From NCBI GenBank assembly GCA_964529025.1, contig CAZGUZ010000001.1, positions 70,163-134,162 on the forward strand: a stretch of 64,000 nucleotides of DNA, read 5' to 3'. A program made the translations under genes and the position numbers. This document shows, piece after piece, positions 12,231 to 55,051 of this stretch. How positions within the stretch are numbered: the first letter of the stretch is position 1; every line of letters begins with the position of its first letter. This DNA comes from an uncultured Candidatus Saccharibacteria bacterium. GTDB taxonomy: Bacteria; Patescibacteriota; Minisyncoccia; Phycocordibacterales; PALSA-1337. The notes beneath the pieces were generated by a model. It made no database searches and had not been told where the DNA came from. It worked only from the letters and a program-made list of their open reading frames with translations.

Positions 12231-13292
12231 CTACTCTGCCGTCACCTGTTTGTAAATATCAAGAAGAGCCAAAAGAAGACTGAGCGATAGTGGACCAAGG
12301 ATAAGTCCGATCGGACCAAAGAATGACAAACCACCGACAACTGACAAAAGAATAAGAAATTCGTGCACATCAACACCTTGCTGAACAATTCGTGGACCTA
12401 AAAAATTGTCGATGAGACCAACTGCAACAACTCCCCATACAAGAAAGCCTACTGCAAATGCTGTAGCGCCTGTAGCAAATAAATAGATAATACCCGGTAC
12501 AACCACAAGTGCCGTACCTACTCCTGGAATCAAAGATGCAATAGCAGCAACACTACCCCACAAAGCTGGGTTTGGTATACCGAACAAAAAGAAACCGAAA
12601 CCCGTAAGCACTCCTTGAATTCCTGCAACCACAAGTGAACCACGGATAACTGAGTTAATTGCTCGCTCGAGTTTAGTAAAAATCAAATTGTCGTATTCAT
12701 CATTAAGAGGTGAAAGCTTAGTCAGCATTGCTCGAACACGTGAACCATCTTTAAGCATATAGAACAAAGCAATGAGCAAGATGAAAGCGTTAAACATGAT
12801 TGTAGCGAAACTCGAGAATACGAAATCAATGTTCGTAAATGACCACTCAAGAGCACTCCTAATATAGGTAGCTATATCGAAAGAATCAAAAGAGATGAGC
12901 GCGCTTTCTCCGAAGATCTTATAGCTTATACGATTTGCAATACCATTAAGTGTATCGATCATTTGTACACGATTGCCTTCATGAGTTAAGTACACATAGA
13001 CATCCTGTGCTTCAAGAGAGATTTGGAGTACTAAAAATGAAAGCGGAATAAGGACCGCCGCAAAAACAATTGCAAGTGTTACACATGTTGAAAATGAACT
13101 GCCTTCATTACCTCGTGAGAATATTTTAGAGACAAAACGGTGCAGTGGCCTAAATAATACAGAAAAAACGAGAGCGAGAACGAGGGTCGAGATGTACGGC
13201 AAAAAAACTAATGTAGTAAGTACCGCTACGACACTTAATAGTGAAAAGAAAAAGTAATGTTGATTTCTATGCATACTCTTAGTATACACCAA
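12231..13292 (-). CDS. AI-2E family (PerM/YhhT-like) transporter
   Basis: 353 aa with about 8 TM helices. The architecture and Gly/Pro-rich C-terminal helices are typical of AI-2E. Confidence 0.65.
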   Translation of the reverse strand: MVYTKSMHRNQHYFFFSLLSVVAVLTTLVFLPYISTLVLALVFSVLFRPLHRFVSKIFSRGNEGSSFSTCVTLAIVFAAVLIPLSFLVLQISLEAQDVYVYLTHEGNRVQMIDTLNGIANRISYKIFGESALISFDSFDIATYIRSALEWSFTNIDFVFSSFATIMFNAFILLIALFYMLKDGSRVRAMLTKLSPLNDEYDNLIFTKLERAINSVIRGSLVVAGIQGVLTGFGFFLFGIPNPALWGSVAAIASLIPGVGTALVVVPGIIYLFATGATAFAVGFLVWGVVAVGLIDNFLGPRIVQQGVDVHEFLILLSVVGGLSFFGPIGLILGPLSLSLLLALLDIYKQVTAE

Positions 13293-13319: not shown

Positions 13320-15797
13320 TTACTTATTTTTCTTCTGTGCTCGCCTATCTTTTCGATTGCCCTGCTTTTCTGTTTGTTCACCTGAATTTGTTGCGAGTGA
13401 ATCTGGATTTGTATGGACTTCTTTAAGCTTTTCTTGCTCTGGCTGAGCAACCTGAACTCCAACATGCGGTAAGAGTGAAAGTATTTGATTATCTACTGAC
13501 ATTTGCATTACCTTAAATAAACGCAGACCTTCTTTCTTGTACTCAACAAGTGGATCATGTTGTCCGTAGGCACGAAGATTTACACTGCCTCGCAAATAAT
13601 CCATAACCTCAAGGTGATCAACCCACAAAGTATCAATTGATTGCAAAATAACTTGTCGAATAACTTCACTGAAAGGTTCGCTTCCAAACTGAGTTACCTT
13701 TTCAGCAATGGTTTTTGTAAGCTTTTCTTGATCTTCTGTATTTGGAACACGGGCAATAATCTCATTGATACGCTCATATACAGTCTGAGTATTTGCTGTA
13801 AGTATATCTCGGCGGCGAGCATATACTGTTACACGCTGCTGATTGAGAACATCGTCATACTGCAAAACATGCTTTCTTCCATCAAAATGAAATCCTTCGA
13901 TCTTAGACTGAGCACCTTCAAGAGTCTTAGTTATAAATGAATTTTGAATTGCTTCGTCCTCGGGAACATTTAATTTTGCAAGTACGCCACGAATAGTTTC
14001 ACCACCAAAAATTCGCATAAGAGAATCTTCAAGAGAAACAAAGAACTGGGTCTCACCCGGATCACCTTGGCGACCAGCTCGTCCTCGGAGCTGATTATCA
14101 ATGCGTCGCGCATCATGACGCTCTGTTCCGAGAACAAAGAGTCCACCAAGAGCTTTTACTTCTTCGTATTGCTCTGGAGTTGCAGGATTACCACCGAGTT
14201 TAATGTCGACTCCTCGACCAGCCATGTTTGTTGCAATTGTCACTGCACTTTTTTTTCCTGCTTGAGCCACAATTTCTCCTTCTTTCTCATGATTCTTAGC
14301 ATTGAGCATATTGTGAGGCACGCCTTCTTTATGTAAGAAGTTGCTCAACATTTCATTGCGTTCAATAGAAACAGTACCAATGAGTACTGGTTGACCTTTT
14401 GAATGAATTTCTTTAACGCGTCGAGCAATTGCTTTAAACTTTCCTTGCTCTGTTCTGAATATCAAATCCTGATGATCTTTACGTGCAACTGTTTTATTTG
14501 TAGGAACAACAACAGTATCAAGGCCGTACACTTTATAAAACTCTTCTTTAGAGGTCTCGGCAGTACCTGTCATACCCGACAACTTTGTATAAAGTCTGAA
14601 AAAGTTTTGATAGGTAATAGAAGCAAAAGTTCGTGACTCTTGTTGAACCTTAAGACCTTCTTTAGCCTCAACAGCTTGATGAAGCCCTTCTGACCAGCGT
14701 CGGCCCGGCTGCATACGGCCAGTAAATGGATCTACAATAACCACCTGTCCATCTTTTACAACATAGTCTGTGTCTATGGTGTACAAAGATTTTGCTTTAA
14801 GCGCTGTTTCGAGGTGATGAACATATTTAATACCGGCATCTGCATATAGGTTTTGCACGCCCATAGCTTTTTCAACCTTGGCAATACCAGCCATAGTAAC
14901 AGCTACTGACTTTGATTTTTCATCAACGGTATAGTCTTCGGTCAAATTAAGTGATGCTGCGATTTGGGCAAATTGTGCATAGAGCATTCCTGAATCTGCT
15001 GCGGGTGCAGAAATGATAAGTGGAGTTCGAGCTTCGTCAATAAGAATTGAGTCAATTTCATCGACAATTGCATAGTTTGGCAAACGCTGTCGCAAGCGTT
15101 CTGAACGGTATTCAAGATTATCGCGTAAATAATCAAAACCAAATTCACTATTTGTTCCGTAAGTAATGTGCGCTTTATATGCTTCGCTACGTGATACGGG
15201 TCGCATGAACTCATTTACAACCTTAAATGAGCCTTGCTCATCGCGGACATCATCTTGTTGTTCTCCTGTATGAGATGGATCGTAAATAAATGAAGAGTCA
15301 TGATTGAGAATACCCACAGTAAGGCCAAGGTAATCGTAAATTTGACCCATCCACACACCGTCACGGCGTGACAAATAGTCATTAACTGTTACAACATGAA
15401 CACCCTTACCCGTAAGAGCATTCAAATATCCTGGGAGTGTGGCAACGAGAGTTTTTCCTTCTCCTGTACGCATTTCGGCAATATTACCGTCATTCATAAT
15501 CATGCCTCCAATAAGCTGAACATCGAAATGTCTTTGACCGAGAGTTCTTCGTGCAGCTTCGCGAACTAAAGCGAAAGCTTCAGAAAGAATTGGGTCGAGG
15601 GCTTTTTGTATATTTTCTTTTGTATCTAAATTTGCCTGACTCAAGGTTTGCATAAAAAATGCAGTGCGAGCACGCATATCCGCTTGAGTCATTTTTTCTA
15701 CCTGAGGTTCGAGGGCATTAATCTCGAGTACACGCTTTTTATACTGCTTAATGAGGCGACCATTATTGTCGCCGAGTAAATTTTTGAGCCATTGCAT
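13320..15797 (-). CDS. secA: Preprotein translocase ATPase SecA
   Basis: 825 aa. DEAD-like motor motifs (MRTGEGKT; DEIDSILIDEARTPLIIS) and a C-terminal basic tail. Confidence 0.95.
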   Translation of the reverse strand: MQWLKNLLGDNNGRLIKQYKKRVLEINALEPQVEKMTQADMRARTAFFMQTLSQANLDTKENIQKALDPILSEAFALVREAARRTLGQRHFDVQLIGGMIMNDGNIAEMRTGEGKTLVATLPGYLNALTGKGVHVVTVNDYLSRRDGVWMGQIYDYLGLTVGILNHDSSFIYDPSHTGEQQDDVRDEQGSFKVVNEFMRPVSRSEAYKAHITYGTNSEFGFDYLRDNLEYRSERLRQRLPNYAIVDEIDSILIDEARTPLIISAPAADSGMLYAQFAQIAASLNLTEDYTVDEKSKSVAVTMAGIAKVEKAMGVQNLYADAGIKYVHHLETALKAKSLYTIDTDYVVKDGQVVIVDPFTGRMQPGRRWSEGLHQAVEAKEGLKVQQESRTFASITYQNFFRLYTKLSGMTGTAETSKEEFYKVYGLDTVVVPTNKTVARKDHQDLIFRTEQGKFKAIARRVKEIHSKGQPVLIGTVSIERNEMLSNFLHKEGVPHNMLNAKNHEKEGEIVAQAGKKSAVTIATNMAGRGVDIKLGGNPATPEQYEEVKALGGLFVLGTERHDARRIDNQLRGRAGRQGDPGETQFFVSLEDSLMRIFGGETIRGVLAKLNVPEDEAIQNSFITKTLEGAQSKIEGFHFDGRKHVLQYDDVLNQQRVTVYARRRDILTANTQTVYERINEIIARVPNTEDQEKLTKTIAEKVTQFGSEPFSEVIRQVILQSIDTLWVDHLEVMDYLRGSVNLRAYGQHDPLVEYKKEGLRLFKVMQMSVDNQILSLLPHVGVQVAQPEQEKLKEVHTNPDSLATNSGEQTEKQGNRKDRRAQKKNK

Positions 15798-15833
15798 ACC
15801 GGCTATCCTATCATATTTATAAGCATATAAAAA

Positions 15834-15851
15834 GACCGACGAATGTCGGCC
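15834..15851 (-). terminator. Intrinsic terminator closing the murB-ncRNA transcript, just upstream of the secA promoter region
   Basis: Minus strand: GGCCGAC AUUC GUCGGUC followed by UUUUUAUAU. Confidence 0.6.
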
Positions 15852-15876
15852 TTTGCAAAAAATATGCTTGGGGTTG

Positions 15877-16245
15877 AATGAAGGGGGTGGTTGTACAGGA
15901 GTCTTGGCGGCGACTCAATGTATGCGAGCCACCCCCTTCACCCCTTGCTCACCCAAGGTACTCAGTACCTTGTTGAACTGCGCTAACACTCCGGTCTTGA
16001 AGTGTCACCACTCACTCCCCTTTATCCCCGGAGTGGTTGCGCAGCCGCACAGTAACACCATACTGTGTGGCAGATCCTCGCTCAAGGCCAAGCCTGAGCA
16101 CAAGATCGTATAGAGAACGGGGCCCTTCGACCCTATCCCCTCCCATTTCAAGTAGATTGTTCATTCCCTCTGGCCGCCCTTTTCTCCCCTGGGCCCTACC
16201 AGTGAACAATCCCTACCCAAACGGTCTACACTGCATATAGTATAC
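15877..16245 (-). ncRNA. GC-rich, highly structured non-coding island (candidate housekeeping ncRNA; divergent RNase P RNA is the best guess, identity unresolved)
   Basis: A roughly 370-nt stretch is markedly more GC-rich than the surroundings. It contains many long-range complementary segments, for example GGGGGUGG...CCACCCCC, CACUCCGG...CCGGAGUG and GAUUGUUCA...UGAACAAUC. On the minus strand there are RNase-P-like motifs: AAGGGGUGAAGGGGGUGG (cf. CR-II AGGGUGAAANGGUG), GGGUCGAAGGGCC near the 5' end, and ACAACCACCCCCUUCA near the 3' end, which could form a P4-like GAAGGG/CCCUUC pairing. It sits between the murB stop and an intrinsic terminator. No convincing protein-coding frame is present. 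Confidence 0.4.
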
Positions 16246-16361
16246 ACCATATCTGAATAATGTCAATAGCTTTAAACGCCGACTGATTAATACGGGTGTA
16301 ATATGGCTTTATTGAGCCATTTAGTATAAAGTCACACGACCAGTTACTTGCACTTTTCAAA

Positions 16362-17417
16362 TTATAAACAACAAACTTCCCTTTCGAGAGTTATATTAAA
16401 TTCTTTGAGGCATTTTTCTTCAATTTCTTGTGCTAAAGAATAAACATCGGCAGAGCTTGATGAAATTCCCCTTTCCATAGCCAAGACGAGTGGTTGATTT
16501 TTGTACACTTCAGCATTTCCTTTGCGGTAACCATTCAAATGAAGCACCTTATCAAGAAGCCATGCCAAAGAAATCTTATACTGACCATTTTTAGATGGAT
16601 ATGCGGGCAGTCCAGGATATTGCCTTTGTAGCCTTTTCAGTTGTTCTTCAGAAATTACTGGATTTTTAAAAAATGAACCTGCTGTTCCGTAGTGATTAAG
16701 GGGTGGTAGTTTTTTGGAACGAATCTCGCAAATTGCTTTGCGAATTTCTTGCGGATGATTTGGCATATTCCCTGCGAAATAGTTTTTAACATCCGGATAT
16801 GAAATATTTGGCTGGGAATTTTTTGAAAGCTTATATATTACCGCTGTCACAATGTATGTATTTGGCCTTGCTTTAAAAATACTGTGACGATAGTCAAAGT
16901 GACAGTCTTCATTCATTAAAGTAACTATCGGTAAATCCTGCTGTATGATATCGATACACTCTACTGCAACAATAGTTGATTGCACCTCTACTCCATATGC
17001 ACCGATATTTTGAATTGCACTTGCACCGACAAGACCGGGAATTGCCGAGAGGTTTTCAAAACCCCATAGACCTTTTTCGACAGTAACCCGCACGAGATTA
17101 TCCCAGTCTTCTCCTGCCTTTGCTTTTACATATACACTACTTTCATCTTGATTTTGCTGTGCCACCTCTAAAGGAAAGTAGTCGGAGAAATTTATTCCCT
17201 TGGCACGAATCATGAGTACAACTCCATTAAAACCATCGTCATGAACTAAAGTATTTGAACCGCCTCCAATAACTGTAATTGGTAGCTTGTGGTTGCGAGC
17301 ATAATTAACACCCTCACGAATATCTGCAATAGTACTGCATTCAATAAGTGTACGAGCCTTACCCCCTACTCCAAAGGTTGTAAGCGGGCCGAGTTCTGTA
17401 TTGTGAGATATTTTCAT
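16362..17417 (-). CDS. murB: UDP-N-acetylenolpyruvoylglucosamine reductase
   Basis: 351 aa. The FAD-binding domain (TFGVGGKARTL...VIGGGSNTL) and a long-form C-terminal domain are present. Confidence 0.85.
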   Translation of the reverse strand: MKISHNTELGPLTTFGVGGKARTLIECSTIADIREGVNYARNHKLPITVIGGGSNTLVHDDGFNGVVLMIRAKGINFSDYFPLEVAQQNQDESSVYVKAKAGEDWDNLVRVTVEKGLWGFENLSAIPGLVGASAIQNIGAYGVEVQSTIVAVECIDIIQQDLPIVTLMNEDCHFDYRHSIFKARPNTYIVTAVIYKLSKNSQPNISYPDVKNYFAGNMPNHPQEIRKAICEIRSKKLPPLNHYGTAGSFFKNPVISEEQLKRLQRQYPGLPAYPSKNGQYKISLAWLLDKVLHLNGYRKGNAEVYKNQPLVLAMERGISSSSADVYSLAQEIEEKCLKEFNITLEREVCCL

Positions 17418-44424: not shown

Positions 44425-45489
44425 TTACTCTATAGTATAGCCCAAACCGCATCGTTCGCACACATTACGCAGTACATACCGCATACGGGCCGCAGATGAA
44501 TGGTGTTTAATTAAATCTGAGTATGCCCTACGATAGTCCTCTTGTGATACCTTGTTTGCCCTTACAAGCAGCATCTTGAGTTTTTCATCAATATCGAGCC
44601 CTGAAGAAAACTCTGCGTATAACTCTTGTGGCAAACCTATTTCATCAGGAAAATTAATATCAATTTTTTGCGTAAGCAAGAGTGCCCCTGATCCTAGAAT
44701 TTCCCAGAAGCGCGCAGTATCAAATCCTCCTCCACTGATCGAAATTCCAACGCGCGCATTTGCCAACTTTTTATAAAATCTCCATCGTGACAAAAAACTA
44801 TTTGGCGAAAGAAAAGGTAGTTTAGTTGATGTGTTCCACACACGAAGACTCCCTTGTGCCTTAATCATTTCGACATATGAAGCAATAAGTTCTCGTAGCG
44901 GTGGGTACTTTCTTTGTCCAAAGACAGAGATAATATCATACGATCTTTCTTTTAAATTTTTATCTAAAGAGTATTTCGTATAAGCTCTTTCAATTCCATA
45001 CGGCAATGGCAATACACCTTTGACATAAGGTTTTTCTCTCCTAAAGTACGCAACACAGCGTTTGAGCATATCAGTATTAATTGCACCCTGCTCTTGGTAA
45101 GAGCCCTGCTCAACTTTTTGAACAATCTGCGGCTCAAGTCGTTTATTGTGACCGAGCTCAGAACCATCAATGTAAGCAGTAATGTTATAGCGCCCAATTA
45201 TATCTACGAGTTCTTTATGATCATGAACTTTGCCCCAGCAATACAAAATAACATCGGCAGATCGAGCAAATTTAATAAAATTATCATCATTGAGCTCATG
45301 GCATGAAATGCCAAAGTGCCGCGGATTACCACTCGTATACTTAACGTCTTTCACTATTCCATCTATTCGAAGCTGTTCTAAACCATCGACAACCGTGCGG
45401 ACAAGGTAGTCTTCTTTTCCACCCGGCGTAATAACAGCAATAGTAATTTGAGTATTATTCATACCTCTATTATAGCAATTTAAGCCCAA
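44425..45489 (-). CDS. Hypothetical protein, possible GT-B-like glycosyltransferase (CgeB/DUF3880-like)
   Basis: 354 aa. The C-terminal ...RVGISISGGGFDTARFWEILGSGALLLTQ... resembles the nucleotide-sugar-binding end of GT-B enzymes. Support is weak. Confidence 0.3.
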   Translation of the reverse strand: MGLNCYNRGMNNTQITIAVITPGGKEDYLVRTVVDGLEQLRIDGIVKDVKYTSGNPRHFGISCHELNDDNFIKFARSADVILYCWGKVHDHKELVDIIGRYNITAYIDGSELGHNKRLEPQIVQKVEQGSYQEQGAINTDMLKRCVAYFRREKPYVKGVLPLPYGIERAYTKYSLDKNLKERSYDIISVFGQRKYPPLRELIASYVEMIKAQGSLRVWNTSTKLPFLSPNSFLSRWRFYKKLANARVGISISGGGFDTARFWEILGSGALLLTQKIDINFPDEIGLPQELYAEFSSGLDIDEKLKMLLVRANKVSQEDYRRAYSDLIKHHSSAARMRYVLRNVCERCGLGYTIE

Positions 45490-51521: not shown

Positions 51522-53474
51522 CTACTCTACCTTGAGCACAGACGCCAGTACCTCATGGGGAACCTCTTTTTTAGGAGCTTGCTTTTCTGGCTCGTTCTTA
51601 TGAACAGGCGCATTTTCTGGTGGTCTAAAACCTTCTTTTGGTTTCAATACTATTTTAGGCTTTGGAGATGCAGCTCGATCGGCCATTGGATCATGTTTTG
51701 AATTTTGAGTATGCTGAGAAATTTTTGCCTCATGATGATGAGCCTGCAAATTATGATTCACAGCCTTCTGTGAAATTGGCTCTTTATTTTGAGTTAAAGA
51801 ACTGAGCATATCTTTAAGCGAAGCAAAACCATCCTGAGGATTTGATTCAAGTGGCGGTCGTTGAATTTTTTCTTGTGAATGCGATTGTGGATGTGACTGC
51901 GGCTGCTGCTGTTGTCGTTGTTGCTGTTGCTGAGGCTGGTGTTGAGGTTGCTCTTGAGGTCGTGGTTGTACTTGTGGCTTTTGTTGCACCTGAACTGGAG
52001 CCGCTTGTTGTGTCGGCACTGGCGCAGTACTTACTACCGACTGAGGCTGGACTTTAGGTGACTGGTTTTGAGGTTGAGCTTGTGCCTGAGGTCGTGGCTG
52101 AGACTGTGGTTGCGCCATAGGTGGTCGTACAGCTTTTTCTGTAGGCTTTATACCTTTATTCTTTGGCTTTTTATCTTCAGAACCTGGGAGTGGCTTATGC
52201 CATTCTTCAATGAGCTGCTCTACAGAGGCGCGTGATCGAGCAAATTGCGCTCGAGAAGCAGCAATAACCTTGTCGATAGCAGAATCTTGCGGCAATTTAA
52301 TTGGCTCCATCGTCACAGCCGAAAATGGCTGCGAACTAATTCCATCGATCATGAGCTTTAAATAAATCTGTGCAAAACCAAGGTTCACCATATCTTCTGC
52401 AGTAAACTGTGGAGCAAATTCTTTTTCAAGAACTTCGGCATCGAAAGCGCCGACACGAAAAGCAACCATGGTACCAACGTTACCAAAGACAGCTGCTCGA
52501 ACCTCTTCTTCCATTTGTTCTATGTATTGGTGGGCAACGGTAAGGTTGAGTTTATACTTTCGGGCTTCTGACAAAATGTCTGCAAATGATTCATTGGCAA
52601 AGTTCTGGAATTCGTCCACAAAAAGATAGAAGTTTGGCAAAGTCTTAAGAACTCTGTCGCCCACATCGGCTCGAGACATTGCAGCAAGGTAGATTTTAGT
52701 AATGAGCATTCCACCAAGCAAATTGGCATTTGATTCGCCAATGCGACCCTTAGAAAGGTTAATGATAATAATCTTACGATTATCCATAAGAGCGCGTATA
52801 TCAAATGACGAACGCTCTTGCCCTATCATGTTTCGAATAAGAGCGTTTGCAGTAAACTGTCCGATTTTATTTTGAATTGCAGGAACAGCTTCGGCAGCCA
52901 TACGCTCGGTATAGTTTGCAAATTCATCAAGCCAGAATGATCGCACCGACGGGTCTTTTACATGCGTCAAAACTTGATCACGATACGCCTTGTCAGACAA
53001 CATACGGTTTACACCAAGGAGTGTTGCTCCGGGGAACTCGAGTAAAGCAAGGAGAGTATTCGTAAGAATGTATTCCATTCGAGCAGACCAAGCATCTTGC
53101 CAAATCTTTTTGAATGTACTCATAAGACCAGCCACTACAAGATGTCGTTTGTCCTGGTCTACCTGTTCGAGCACATTGAATGAAATAGGATACTCCATAT
53201 CGAATGGAGCAAAGTACACAACATCTTTTGCTCGTGACTCTGGAATATATTCAAGAAGAAGTTCTGCCGTTTTGCCGTGAGGGTCGATGAAAGCAAAACC
53301 TTCGCCATTCTTAATATCTTGAACAGCCATGTTTTCAAGTAAGGTCGACTTACCCATACCTGTTTTTCCAATTACGTACACATGTCGAGTACGGTCTTTG
53401 GCTTTGATACCAAAAGGCGTTCGCTTATTGCGAGAATCTGTGTACGCGAAATATGTAACACGATTTTCGTCCAT
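51522..53474 (-). CDS. VirD4/TraG/TraD-like type IV coupling-protein-family ATPase (soluble, no N-terminal TM) with long P/Q-rich disordered tail
   Basis: 650 aa. Walker A (YVIGKTGMGKST), a DPHGK motif (cf. DPKGE of VirD4), Walker B (FYLFVDEFQNF) and a TraD/TraG-type C-terminal AAA core are present. The last roughly 200 aa are low-complexity, about 60 percent P and Q (PQSQPRPQAQAQPQNQ..., QQQQQRQQQQPQSHPQSH). Confidence 0.7.
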   Translation of the reverse strand: MDENRVTYFAYTDSRNKRTPFGIKAKDRTRHVYVIGKTGMGKSTLLENMAVQDIKNGEGFAFIDPHGKTAELLLEYIPESRAKDVVYFAPFDMEYPISFNVLEQVDQDKRHLVVAGLMSTFKKIWQDAWSARMEYILTNTLLALLEFPGATLLGVNRMLSDKAYRDQVLTHVKDPSVRSFWLDEFANYTERMAAEAVPAIQNKIGQFTANALIRNMIGQERSSFDIRALMDNRKIIIINLSKGRIGESNANLLGGMLITKIYLAAMSRADVGDRVLKTLPNFYLFVDEFQNFANESFADILSEARKYKLNLTVAHQYIEQMEEEVRAAVFGNVGTMVAFRVGAFDAEVLEKEFAPQFTAEDMVNLGFAQIYLKLMIDGISSQPFSAVTMEPIKLPQDSAIDKVIAASRAQFARSRASVEQLIEEWHKPLPGSEDKKPKNKGIKPTEKAVRPPMAQPQSQPRPQAQAQPQNQSPKVQPQSVVSTAPVPTQQAAPVQVQQKPQVQPRPQEQPQHQPQQQQQRQQQQPQSHPQSHSQEKIQRPPLESNPQDGFASLKDMLSSLTQNKEPISQKAVNHNLQAHHHEAKISQHTQNSKHDPMADRAASPKPKIVLKPKEGFRPPENAPVHKNEPEKQAPKKEVPHEVLASVLKVE

Positions 53475-53543
53475 ATAGAAAGAAATTAATACCTGTATAG
53501 TATACCACGCTTTTTATATTGAAATGTGACAAATAAACAACCC

Positions 53544-53568
53544 CACACGCATTGCGCGTGTGGGGTGT
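53544..53568 (-). terminator. Intrinsic terminator about 70 nt upstream of the coupling-protein gene start (ends the upstream transcript, or acts as an attenuator)
   Basis: Minus strand: CCCCACACGCG CAA UGCGUGUGGGG followed by UUGUUUAUUU. Confidence 0.65.
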
Positions 53569-53569
53569 C

Positions 53570-53870
53570 GGGTCGAAGTACGTGAGATCACTTCAACCCA
53601 CAACTTTGCCTGATCTCACCCGAGTGAGTAAAGGCTCCGCTCGGACGTGAGAGCTGTCTAGGTTCACGACCAAGAACACTCCTAATGATCGTTGCGGCGG
53701 GGATGTTTGTAGGGACAACTCCCTCTCCGGGAGTCTGACCGATAGTGGCTACTTTTACAGCGCCACCTCTTACAGGTTCTGAAGGTTTCATTGCTACAAA
53801 CACACTACACCCGCCACTATAACTTGTAAAGTGTTTATAACTGTATTTTCCACAACGAACGACGGCCGAG
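53570..53870 (-). ncRNA. GC-rich structured RNA candidate (sRNA, 3'-UTR element or regulatory leader; class unknown)
   Basis: A roughly 300-nt GC-rich stretch lies between the glycoside-hydrolase-like gene stop and the terminator. It has multiple nested complementary segments: AUAGUGGC/GCCACUAU, GGCGGG/CCCGCC, CUCCC-GGAGA-GGGAG and a 10-bp GGGUUGAAGU/ACUUCGACCC helix. The only ORF is a 71-aa GC-biased frame (53588..53803). Confidence 0.35.
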
Positions 53871-53890: not shown

Positions 53891-55051
53891 TTATTCCGGT
53901 AGATACGCTCCTGCTGTATAACGATTCGAAGCATTCCACACAAGCCAGCCATTCAAACCAACATCGTATGTTGCTTGAATCTGGGCTCGAATCATTTCGG
54001 GAGTATATGTCGTGCCACCAATACTAAAATCTTGTATCCATGGTCGTAATTTTTGTGGCGAGGTGCTTGCTGCAACTGCTCTCTCAACCGCTTTTGACAT
54101 TGCATACTGAATAATTTCATACGGCTTCTCTGCTGGCTTTTTATATCCATTAAAATTTGGTGGGTAGTGTGATGGGTACACCATTGGATACACATAATCA
54201 AAATAGGTTAAAGCTGGTTCAAGGAGTTGACCAATACCTAAGTCATCAGTATTCGAAGTAGTCATACCAAAAAGATCAGCAGAAAGGGGCACACCAAGAT
54301 CACCGAGGTCGTCGCGTACAAATTTAAAGTACGAAGTAAGAACTTCTGAGCGTACTCTCTTGCCCGCATAAGGATATACAATATTTGCCATATCGCCATC
54401 CGAAGGAAAACGTATATAGTCAAAATTAATTTCGCCAAAGCCTCTATCATATGATTCGCGAGCAATCATAGAAATATAGTGCCAATATGGTTCAGCTGCT
54501 GCATCAATCCAACTTACACCCTTAAAATCTTTCCAAATTTGATTATCACTCTTGCGTCGAACGGCCCACTCAGGGTGATGCGTTACCATGTATGAATCTT
54601 GGAAAATAGAGATGCGTCCAATTATATAAATATTCTTAGAATGAAGCTCATCAATGAGTGCGTCGATATCGGTTATACGATTTTCCCACGACTTAAACTC
54701 TTTAAGTTTTTCATTGCGGGGCTCGAAACTAATTTTTCCTGTATAGTCTTTAACATCAATAACAACAGCATTGATTTCGGTTTCATCAATGAGTTTAATT
54801 AATTTATTGCGTAGCTCTGGATTCCCCGCCACCCAGCTCGTCATATAAATTGCTTTTACAGATTCTGGTGTTTTTACTCGCTCTGGGCGAACTGGCTTTA
54901 TTGGTTCCGAATGTATTGCAGACTGAACTGCGCTCACAATGCCCGATGAATCAGGAACGACACGCAAAGGAAAGAAATATGAAACCGCATGAAAGACACC
55001 AATTATAACGACGAGGGCAATAATTGCTATCGATATGCGGATCGGTATCAT
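53891..55051 (-). CDS. Putative extracytoplasmic TIM-barrel glycoside hydrolase (DUF4015/GHL10-like), N-terminal TM anchor
   Basis: 386 aa. One N-terminal TM helix, then an about 340-aa domain with alternating hydrophobic beta-strands and acidic loop residues (...INFDYIRFPSDGD..., ...WIQDFSIGG...). These are reminiscent of putative glycosyl-hydrolase DUF4015 proteins. Confidence 0.45.
   Translation of the reverse strand: MIPIRISIAIIALVVIIGVFHAVSYFFPLRVVPDSSGIVSAVQSAIHSEPIKPVRPERVKTPESVKAIYMTSWVAGNPELRNKLIKLIDETEINAVVIDVKDYTGKISFEPRNEKLKEFKSWENRITDIDALIDELHSKNIYIIGRISIFQDSYMVTHHPEWAVRRKSDNQIWKDFKGVSWIDAAAEPYWHYISMIARESYDRGFGEINFDYIRFPSDGDMANIVYPYAGKRVRSEVLTSYFKFVRDDLGDLGVPLSADLFGMTTSNTDDLGIGQLLEPALTYFDYVYPMVYPSHYPPNFNGYKKPAEKPYEIIQYAMSKAVERAVAASTSPQKLRPWIQDFSIGGTTYTPEMIRAQIQATYDVGLNGWLVWNASNRYTAGAYLPE

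What the first reader, a model, noticed from the sequence alone, without database searches (positions are those of the whole stretch)
15834..16261. GC-rich structured island between murB and secA: unassigned housekeeping ncRNA (possible divergent RNase P RNA)
About 370 nt of 55-60 percent GC sit in a roughly 40 percent GC genome. The stretch is packed with long-range complementarity and ends in a clean intrinsic terminator on the minus strand. On the minus strand it carries RNase-P-like blocks: AAGGGGUGAAGGGGGUGG (cf. CR-II), GGGUCGAAGGGCC near the 5' end and ACAACCACCCCCUUCA near the 3' end, which could form a P4-like helix with compensatory changes. I could not recover a canonical CR-I or CR-V. 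A tmRNA reading fails: there is no G53-type T-arm and no Ala-Ala-stop tag frame. If it is RNase P RNA it is a strongly divergent CPR-type. If not, it is an unknown, abundant-looking structured RNA in a conserved murB-secA slot.
Basis: partly seen in the sequence, partly recalled or inferred. Interest (0 to 1): 0.7.

Follow-up and report, generated by a model that had tools for sequence, protein, structure and literature searches.

The report
Unclassified structured RNA gene beside secA
The GC-rich stretch between murB and secA is a real, roughly 400-nucleotide structured non-coding RNA gene with its own promoter and terminator; it is not RNase P RNA, matches no described RNA family, and was found only in one small group of Paceibacteria (CPR bacteria), so its job is still unknown.

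Summary
Window 15829-16232 (minus strand) is the most GC-rich stretch of the 64 kb window. It folds far better than shuffled sequence (z about -8). It lies between a near-consensus sigma-70 promoter and a -14 kcal/mol hairpin followed by a U-tract.

The RNase P reading fails:
- No Rfam family matches, even at E<=10.
- The CR-I and CR-V motifs are absent.
- A relative, L078, carries a canonical RNase P RNA.
- ARAGORN finds no tmRNA.

Homologues exist only in the same murB-secA gap of close relatives, in two lineages: three species with SecA 98% identical, and L121/L122 with MurB about 60% identical. Between the lineages the RNA body is only 53% identical, yet hairpin order and pairing are kept through many compensatory changes.

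The 57 nt from the terminator to the secA ATG are 95-100% identical. Part of this is explained: they hold an extended -10 element (TGATAGGAT) 7 nt before the ATG. This is a leaderless-mRNA promoter layout seen upstream of secA in outgroups and of about a third of the long ORFs in the window. The RNA is therefore most likely its own transcription unit, not the secA leader.

Outgroup murB-secA gaps hold nothing or a small Lys-rich ORF. My best reading is a lineage-restricted, trans-acting structured RNA of unknown biochemical role.

The parts
16261..16266 (-). -35 hexamer TTGACA of the RNA's own promoter
   Evidence: Promoter scan, 11 of 12 matches with a 16-nt spacer. The hexamer is identical in L081-L083, L121 and L122.
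16239..16244 (-). -10 hexamer TATACT (TATAAT in L121/L122), preceded by TG
   Evidence: It places the start near A16232.
15829..16232 (-). Predicted transcript, about 404 nt, from the inferred start to the end of the terminator U-tract
   Evidence: MFE z = -8.1. In 4 sequences 97.9% of cells are paired against 40-48% in slid controls, and 7 pairs carry compensatory changes against 0-1. The ends are inferred from promoter and terminator, not measured.
16225..16231 (-). 5' strand GUGUAGA of candidate helix P1 (partner UCUAUAC at 16108-16114)
   Evidence: Read from the sequences: window GUGUAGA/UCUAUAC, L121 GUAUAGG/UCUAUAU, L122 GUAUAGA/UCUAUAU. All differences keep pairing. It is a candidate only and competes with other predicted pairings.
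16143..16224 (-). Long 5' hairpin H1 (core GGAUUGUUCA/UGAACAAUCU)
   Evidence: RNAalifold and pair counts give 2 compensatory pairs and 3 one-sided consistent changes. Coordinates.
16104..16141 (-). Small hairpin H2 (GGGUC-GAAG-GGCCC) plus the conserved motif GUUCUCUAUACGAUC (16104-16118)
   Evidence: The motif is invariant in the 4 close sequences. It is recognisable as CUUCUAUAUGAUA in L121/L122.
16073..16107 (-). Hairpin H3 (GAUCUU.../...AGGAUC), variable tip
   Evidence: The tip sequence is replaced between strains with pairing kept. The equivalent hairpin in L121/L122 has 3 compensatory pairs.
16044..16071 (-). Hairpin H4 (CACAGUA/UACUGUG)
   Evidence: Two double compensatory changes in L083: UACGGUA/UACCGUA.
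15979..16043 (-). Closing helix UGCGC/GCGCA enclosing hairpin b (CACUCCGG/CCGGAGUG), with the conserved GUGGUG at 16006-16011
   Evidence: MFE. The L121 equivalents are GUGC/GCAC and AUACUCGG/CCGAGUAU with GUGGUG in the loop: 1 and 5 double changes, as I aligned them by hand.
15954..15972 (-). Hairpin C (CAAGGUAC-UGA-GUACCUUG)
15870..15944 (-). Hairpin D: invariant GC-rich helix GAAGGGGGUGG/CCACCCCCUUC, tip hairpin with loop CCGCCA (15905-15910), followed by the conserved UUCAACC (15872-15878)
   Evidence: Inverted repeat I1. It folds in both lineages. A model built from the close sequences alone finds L121 at 26.5 bits, E about 9e-5. The base of the helix has 2 double changes between the window copy and L121. 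The tip stem GUCG/CGAC becomes GUCA/UGAC.
15829..15853 (-). Intrinsic terminator: AAGGCCGAC-AUUC-GUCGGUCUU plus U-tract
   Evidence: -14.2 kcal/mol. The 18-nt core is unique in the window. It is identical in every homologue, including L121.
15805..15813 (-). Extended -10 element TGATAGGAT of secA's own promoter, 7 nt before the ATG (leaderless layout)
   Evidence: Identical in all homologues. TGnTAnnnT lies at similar spacings (about 7-10 nt) before secA in outgroups. -10-like hexamers peak 6-8 nt before the ATG in 19 of 54 long ORFs of the window. Promoter activity is inferred, not measured.
13320..15797 (-). secA (825 aa), downstream neighbour
   Evidence: Pfam SecA_DEAD, SecA_PP_bind, P-loop_SecA, SecA_SW.
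16362..17417 (-). murB (351 aa), upstream neighbour
   Evidence: Pfam FAD_binding_4 and MurB_C.

Best explanation
This is a stand-alone gene for a structured non-coding RNA of about 400 nt. It is transcribed on the minus strand from a near-consensus sigma-70 promoter (start near 16232) and ends at a strong intrinsic terminator (near 15829).

The RNA folds into a chain of hairpins, in this order:
- a 5' domain, possibly closed by a short helix between the 5' end and the conserved UCUAUAY motif;
- two variable hairpins;
- a closed hairpin carrying a GUGGUG loop;
- a short hairpin;
- a long GC-rich hairpin followed by UUCAACC.

The shape is maintained by selection while the sequence drifts. secA, immediately downstream, appears to have its own extended -10 promoter that gives a leaderless mRNA. 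If so, the RNA is not needed as the secA leader, and its terminator insulates that promoter from the strong upstream one.

Shown: the RNA structure, its conservation with compensatory changes, the promoter and terminator signals, and the absence of any known family.

Inferred: that it acts in trans as a folded particle (a protein-binding or scaffold RNA, less likely a ribozyme) rather than by simple base-pairing. The grounds are its size, its many covarying helices, and its few invariant loop or junction motifs. What it binds or does is unknown.
For: Promoter: TTGACA-16-TATACT, 11 of 12 matches, conserved in both lineages.

Terminator: -14.2 kcal/mol followed by U5.

Folding: z = -8.1 in the window copy and -8.2 in L121.

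Selection:
- secA third-codon positions are only 66-81% identical to the close relatives and 46% identical to L121.
- The RNA body is 82-84% and 53% identical respectively.
- Pairing is nevertheless kept: 97.9% of cells paired against 40-48% when slid, and 7 compensatory pairs against 0-1.
- There are 6 compensatory pairs within the L121/L122 pair.
- Whole helices are re-written between lineages.

Strand: many conserved G-U pairs would be A-C mismatches on the other strand.

Not coding: the indels are not multiples of three.

Separate unit from secA: TGATAGGAT lies 7 nt before the ATG. The same layout occurs before secA in outgroups. -10-like hexamers are enriched 6-8 nt before the ATG across the window, 19 of 54 ORFs against about 2 per other offset.

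No known family.
Against: No transcript data exist, so both ends and the independence from secA are inferred from sequence signals.

The terminator hairpin is 18 of 18 identical across lineages whose other helices are rewritten. A plain terminator does not need that. It hints at a sequence-specific role, on RNA or on DNA, that I cannot name, and it keeps a link to secA expression open.

Only five full and one partial independent sequences exist, from two lineages. Covariation statistics are therefore weak, and parts of the cross-lineage alignment were made by hand.

No protein partner, target or chemistry can be proposed from the sequence.

A narrow distribution is unusual for an essential RNP RNA.
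Confidence: 0.55

Rival explanations
1. It is a cis-acting 5' leader or attenuator of secA. Transcription from the strong promoter runs through the structured RNA, and a regulated fraction reads through the terminator into secA. The RNA would sense a protein, ligand or condition, as a riboswitch, T-box or protein-binding leader does.
For: The layout is promoter, then structured RNA, then terminator, then 37 nt, then the start codon, all on one strand. The RNA is always found directly upstream of secA. The terminator-to-ATG segment is the best conserved part of the locus, 95-100% identical. In the close group only, hairpin-b sequence AAGACCGGAGUGU is complementary to the terminator loop and 3' strand.
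Against: secA has a plausible promoter of its own in a leaderless layout that is common in this genome and upstream of secA in outgroups. I found no alternative antiterminator pairing conserved in both lineages; the 13-bp complementarity is missing in L121. In riboswitches the sensor is the conserved part and the terminator drifts, and here it is the reverse. Outgroups express secA without any such leader. No Rfam cis-regulatory family matches.
Confidence: 0.2
2. It is a strongly divergent RNase P RNA.
For: The length of about 400 nt, GC-rich structure, and a G-rich block AAGGGGUGAAGGGGGUGG that superficially recalls CR-II. In one relative, L078, an RNase P RNA also lies upstream of secA.
Against: No RNase P family hit at E<=10 in the window copy or in three homologues. 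CR-I and CR-V are absent. The CR-II-like block is one strand of a local hairpin. The 'S-domain-like' piece sits at the 3' end directly before the terminator, where the P4, P2 and P1 3' strands should be. L078 shows that Paceibacteria keep a canonical RNase P RNA with GAGGAAAGUCC and ACAGAAUUCGGCUUA. L078 lacks murB next to secA, so the position is not homologous.
Confidence: 0.02
3. It is another divergent housekeeping RNA: tmRNA, SRP RNA or 6S RNA.
For: A strong promoter and a stable fold. A second unassigned structured island in the same window (about 53530-53830) shows that Rfam leaves more than one structured island of this genome unassigned.
Against: ARAGORN finds no tmRNA. There are no Rfam hits to tmRNA, SRP or 6S at E<=10. 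By reading the sequence I find no acceptor/T-arm pair of ends, no tag frame, no GGAA-tetraloop/AGCAGC SRP motif, and no single long hairpin with a central bubble. The RNA is absent from the same gap in 80 relatives, although housekeeping RNAs could lie elsewhere in those genomes.
Confidence: 0.03
4. It is a decaying insertion (a relic of a mobile element or foreign DNA) with no present function.
For: It is lineage-specific in a gap that is about 30 nt or differently filled in outgroups. Its GC content is above the genome's. A 12 of 13 direct repeat flanks it.
Against: Purifying selection on structure across lineages with saturated synonymous sites. The promoter and terminator are conserved. 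There is no transposase, integrase or terminal inverted repeat. The flanking repeat is at chance level (about 0.8 expected by my estimate). It is a single copy in the window. Viral collection scans with two motifs were empty.
Confidence: 0.05

Closest known systems
Bacterial RNase P RNA, type A (Rfam RF00010)
   Same: About 350-400 nt, GC-rich relative to an AT-rich genome, many helices, and its own promoter. One relative has it upstream of secA.
   Different: No CR-I or CR-V and so no P4. No covariance-model hit even at E<=10. A different order of elements. A canonical RNase P RNA exists in the same bacterial class.
Orphan large structured bacterial ncRNAs (OLE, ROOL, GOLLD, raiA-motif RNAs)
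   Same: A stand-alone, complex-folded RNA of several hundred nucleotides whose helices covary. It is lineage-restricted and its biochemical function cannot be read from the sequence. This comparison rests on my own knowledge of these families.
   Different: No match to any of their Rfam models. It is shorter than OLE, ROOL and GOLLD. Its known range is far narrower: two sister lineages in one genomic position.
Terminator-type riboswitch, T-box or protein-binding leaders
   Same: Promoter, structured RNA, intrinsic terminator, then a gene on the same strand.
   Different: The downstream gene seems to have its own leaderless promoter. No conserved antiterminator alternative was found. The terminator, not the upstream fold, is the invariant part. 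No Rfam cis-regulatory family matches.
tmRNA
   Same: Similar length, with G-rich and C-rich helices.
   Different: ARAGORN and Rfam are both negative. There is no tRNA-like end pairing, T-arm or tag reading frame.

Membership tests
RNase P RNA (bacterial type A/B) | Scores at or above the Rfam gathering threshold for an RNase P model, or at least gives a sub-threshold hit | tested here: not met
   No RNase P hit at gathering or at E<=10 in the window copy or in L081, L121 and L122. The positive control L078 scores 111.6 bits.
RNase P RNA (bacterial type A/B) | CR-I GAGGAAAGUCC (5' strand of P4) | tested here: not met
   0 matches with <=1 mismatch in the whole window. The nearest string in L121, GAGGAAUGAGC, has 3 mismatches and pairs locally.
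RNase P RNA (bacterial type A/B) | CR-V ACAGAANNCGGCUUA (3' strand of P4) near the 3' end | tested here: not met
   0 matches with <=2 mismatches. The 3' end of the RNA is hairpin D followed by the terminator.
RNase P RNA (bacterial type A/B) | Cleaves pre-tRNA 5' leaders | not testable with these tools
   Needs an in-vitro assay.
tmRNA | tRNA-like domain (paired 5' and 3' ends, T-arm) plus a tag reading frame | tested here: not met
   ARAGORN finds 0 genes. No Rfam tmRNA hit at E<=10.
SRP RNA / 6S RNA | Match to the Rfam SRP or 6S models | tested here: not met
   No hit at E<=10.
Riboswitch / T-box / attenuator leader | Match to a known cis-regulatory family | tested here: not met
   Only chance-level hits to unrelated families.
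Riboswitch / T-box / attenuator leader | Mutually exclusive terminator and antiterminator pairings conserved among homologues | tested here: inconclusive
   RNAduplex finds a 13-bp complementarity to the terminator in the four close sequences but not in L121. There are too few sequences to decide.
Riboswitch / T-box / attenuator leader | The downstream gene depends on read-through (has no promoter of its own) | tested here: not met
   An extended -10 element TGATAGGAT lies 7 nt before the secA ATG, matching the leaderless layout of outgroup secA and of many window genes. This is sequence evidence only.
Stand-alone structured ncRNA gene | Own promoter and terminator, non-coding, structure under selection | tested here: met
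   and 33/55. The indels are not multiples of three.

The most novel reading that the evidence does not exclude
A previously undescribed class of large complex-folded RNA, confined to a Paceibacteria lineage, that works as a ribozyme or as the core of a ribonucleoprotein. Its invariant 3' hairpin would be a sequence-specific binding site that also couples it physically to the secA promoter. For example, the particle could act in protein export or in leaderless translation, in an organism whose relatives lack the anti-Shine-Dalgarno sequence.
Probability: 0.12. Interest if true: 0.75.

Novelty: new member of a known kind. Interest (0 to 1): 0.45.

Why it matters
CPR/Patescibacteria genomes are very small, so keeping a 400-nt RNA whose fold is preserved while its sequence is half rewritten implies a real cellular role. 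No described RNA family accounts for it.

It adds a candidate to the short list of large orphan structured RNAs. It comes with a concrete, testable anatomy: promoter, terminator, conserved loops, and two lineages for mutational design.

The negative result also has practical value. It should not be annotated as rnpB.

The side observation that secA and many other genes here sit 6-8 nt behind a -10 box, in a clade whose relatives lack CCUCC at the 16S 3' end, bears on how these organisms start translation.

Tried and rejected
Sequence searches of the 80 SecA-anchored genome loci: blastn and nhmmer with the island, then nhmmer with L121 and with a profile, found no homologue.

Other GC-rich peaks in those loci turned out to be rRNA, tRNA, one RNase P RNA, or coding sequence.

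Viral collection scans with two conserved motifs returned 0 hits.

My single metagenome scan used the hairpin-D stem pattern. The pattern is its own reverse complement, and it returned 36 unrelated GC-rich hairpins and no family member.

A protein search with only the SecA N-terminus gave no further clade members. P0122 and the window's own SecA were not on record. P0121 is a C-terminal fragment.

A G-quadruplex reading of GGGAGGGGAUAGGGUCGAAGGG is rejected, because the G-tracts are absent from L121/L122.

Small-ORF or arrest-peptide readings are rejected because of frame-breaking indels. A 7-codon uORF, AUGCUUAUAAAUAUGAUAGGAUAG, lies inside the conserved 57 nt, but its two substitutions are non-synonymous and it has no signal to act on.

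I considered SRP-like, T-box-like and boxA-like resemblances of short strings by eye and dropped them for lack of any model hit.

A 16-nt near-identity between the window's 5' region and a mid-RNA hairpin of L121 is not collinear and only marginally above chance.

MAFFT misaligns the two lineages, so the cross-lineage helix comparisons were made by hand from separate folds.

Literature searches found no description of such an RNA.

Full report
**What is at the coordinates**

The 564-nt gap between murB (16362-17417, minus strand) and secA (13320-15797, minus strand; Pfam) holds the most GC-rich stretch of the window. Its 200-nt windows reach 0.57 against a window mean of 0.401 (sd 0.039). On the minus strand it is framed by two signals:
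- TTGACA-16 nt-TATACT at 16266-16239, 11 of 12 matches to the sigma-70 consensus.
- The hairpin AAGGCCGAC-AUUC-GUCGGUCUU followed by Us, at -14.2 kcal/mol.

From the inferred start (A16232) to the end of the U-tract (15829) the 404-nt RNA folds at -184.7 kcal/mol. Shuffles give -140.2 +/- 5.5, so z = -8.1. The plus strand folds less well.

**Known families**

- Rfam 15 gives no hit in the whole window at gathering thresholds.
- At E<=10 on the island it gives only chance matches to unrelated families: snoRNA, miRNA and an Enterococcus sRNA that is matched by the terminator.
- The same holds for the homologues L081, L121 and L122.
- ARAGORN finds no tRNA or tmRNA in the window.
- The two universal RNase P motifs are absent from the window: GAGGAAAGUCC with <=1 mismatch and ACAGAANNCGGCUUA with <=2 mismatches.
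- As a positive control, L078, a Paceibacteria relative, has an ordinary RNaseP_bact_a RNA at 111.6 bits carrying both motifs.

The RNase P reading is rejected.

**Organism and relatives**

SecA places the window in the Patescibacteria, class Paceibacteria. The best species representative is 68% identical. The protein database holds one near-identical SecA cluster and then nothing above 68%. Through that cluster and through MurB I recovered every relative I could find:
- L081, L082 and L083: SecA 98% identical, but secA third-codon positions only 66-81% identical, so these are separate species.
- L125-L128: the same species as the window.
- A more distant lineage: L121 (complete) and L122/L123 (5' half only). 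MurB is about 60% identical, the SecA N-terminus 89%, and third-codon positions 46%, which is saturated.

All of them carry the RNA in the same murB-secA gap.

**Conservation and structure**

Against the window copy, percent identity by segment is as follows:

| Segment | L083 | L081 | L082 | L121 |
|---|---|---|---|---|
| Spacer upstream of the promoter | 77 | 50 | 55 | 17 |
| RNA body | 84 | 82 | 82 | 53 |
| 57 nt from terminator to the secA ATG | 98 | 100 | 100 | 95 |

In the four close sequences the RNAalifold structure has 129 pairs. Of the cells, 97.9% are paired, against 40-48% when the partners are slid. Seven pairs carry changes on both sides, against 0-1 in the slid controls and 0 of 500 shuffles. 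One example is hairpin H4, CACAGUA/UACUGUG, which becomes UACGGUA/UACCGUA.

L121 and L122 add six compensatory pairs between themselves. L121 folds as well as the window copy (z = -8.2).

The two lineages have the same order of elements, although most helices are rewritten. I compared separate folds by hand, because MAFFT misaligns the two lineages:
- The closing helix GCGC/GCGC becomes GUGC/GCAC.
- Hairpin b, CACUCCGG/CCGGAGUG, becomes AUACUCGG/CCGAGUAU: five double changes, with GUGGUG kept in the loop.
- The base of hairpin D, GGGUGAAG/CUUCAUUC, becomes GAACCGAG/CUCCGUUC: two double changes.
- A model built only from the close sequences finds hairpin D of L121 at E about 9e-5.

Motifs shared across lineages are the 5' end AGURUAG, YUUCUMUAUAYGAU, GUGGUG, AGGGGGUGG/CACCCCCU, and UUCAACC.

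The 5' GURUAGR can pair with UCUAUAY in all sequences, and every difference keeps the pairing. This would close the 5' domain, but it is a candidate helix, not an established one.

Frame-breaking indels rule out a coding reading. Numerous conserved G-U pairs fix the strand.

**Is it the secA leader?**

At first the near-invariant terminator-to-ATG segment suggested an attenuator. That segment, however, contains TGATAGGAT ending 7 nt before the ATG.
- In outgroups, secA is preceded at similar spacings (about 7-10 nt) by TGATATAGT, TGATAGAAT, TGATAGTAT and similar elements.
- In this window, -10-like hexamers pile up 6-8 nt before the ATG: 19 of 54 long ORFs, against about 2 per other offset.
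- Relatives' 16S rRNAs end in ...GUGGAAUAAUUCAAUUUG, without CCUCC.

Together these point to widespread leaderless mRNAs and to a promoter of secA's own. On that reading the RNA is a separate transcription unit whose terminator shields the secA promoter.

The promoter explains the conservation of the 3' part of the segment. It does not explain why the 18-nt hairpin, loop included, is identical in lineages that rewrote every other helix. That remains unexplained and keeps some functional tie to secA possible.

I found no antiterminator alternative shared by both lineages. A 13-bp complementarity between hairpin b and the terminator exists only in the close group.

**Distribution**

The murB-secA order is common in Paceibacteria, but the RNA is not.
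- In the outgroups the two genes either lie about 30-80 nt apart or are separated by 330-930 nt of AT-rich DNA. That DNA often encodes a small Lys/Ala-rich protein.
- Neither nhmmer nor the hairpin-D model finds the RNA in the 80 loci.
- Two viral scans were empty.
- My one metagenome scan returned only unrelated hairpins.

As far as I could see, the family is confined to two sister lineages and one genomic position.

**Interpretation**

What is established is a non-coding RNA gene under selection for a complex fold, with no relation to any described family. Size, architecture and the conservation pattern (structure kept, few invariant loops and junctions) fit a trans-acting folded particle such as a protein-binding or scaffold RNA. 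They fit a base-pairing sRNA less well. This step is inference. My estimates are:
- stand-alone structured RNA: about 0.55;
- secA leader or attenuator: about 0.2;
- relic insertion: about 0.05;
- divergent tmRNA, SRP or 6S RNA: about 0.03;
- divergent RNase P RNA: about 0.02;
- the remainder is unassigned.

**Novelty and interest**

It is a new family of a familiar kind, an orphan structured RNA, with a narrow range. That makes it moderately interesting. It would become more so if a partner or activity were found, or if it proves to be linked to secretion or leaderless translation in CPR bacteria.

A second unassigned structured island in the same window (about 53530-53830, z = -6.4, no Rfam hit) suggests that this lineage holds more such RNAs.

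Noticed in passing
window 53530-53830 (minus strand): A second GC-rich intergenic island between ORFs 51522-53474 and 53891-55051. It is about 270 nt, with a -10-like TATAGT upstream and a strong terminator (CCCCACACGCGCAAUGCGUGUGGGG followed by Us). MFE z = -6.4. No Rfam hit at gathering or at E<=10. Another unassigned structured RNA candidate.
   Followed up: partly
L078 1-116 and L073 1-367: The 16S rRNA 3' ends of these Paceibacteria relatives read ...GGAAGCUGUUCGUGGAAUAAUUCAAUUUG. The canonical anti-Shine-Dalgarno CCUCC is missing.
   Followed up: no
window, upstream of many ORFs (e.g. 6281, 12231-13274, 25603, 44425-45462, 56745, 13320-15797): -10-like hexamers, often with TGn, end 6-8 nt before the ATG in 19 of 54 long ORFs. 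This suggests that leaderless mRNAs are common in this organism.
   Followed up: partly
L008, L032, L044, L053, L055, L056, L063 (murB-secA gaps): In outgroups the gap that holds the RNA here instead encodes a small, very Lys/Ala-rich protein (for example MPAKKKVAKKVAKKAPAKKKV...), a histone-H1-like low-complexity sequence.
   Followed up: no
L078 1-2038: A canonical RNase P RNA (1064-1438) lies between the 3' end of a 16S rRNA gene (1-116) and secA (2038), with no 23S rRNA in between.
   Followed up: no
window 15834-15851: The 18-nt terminator hairpin GGCCGACAUUCGUCGGUC, loop included, is identical in all homologues, even L121, whose other helices are rewritten. It is unique in the window. 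A sequence-specific role, on RNA or on DNA, is implied but not identified.
   Followed up: partly
window 16309-16321 and 15781-15793: A 12 of 13 direct repeat, AATGGCTCAAWAA, flanks the RNA gene. One copy is in the hairpin after murB and the other in the first codons of secA. It is about chance level for this length and composition.
   Followed up: no
window 15987-16000 versus 15832-15846: In the four close sequences only, AAGACCGGAGUGU (hairpin b) is complementary to the terminator loop and 3' strand (ACAUUC-GU-CGGUCUU), 13 bp with a 2-nt bulge. This is not conserved in L121.
   Followed up: partly
window 16120-16146: A G-quadruplex-type run, GGGAGGGGAUAGGGUCGAAGGG, is kept in the four close sequences but is absent from L121/L122.
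   Followed up: yes
window 1-64000: There is no tRNA gene anywhere in the 64 kb (ARAGORN).
   Followed up: no
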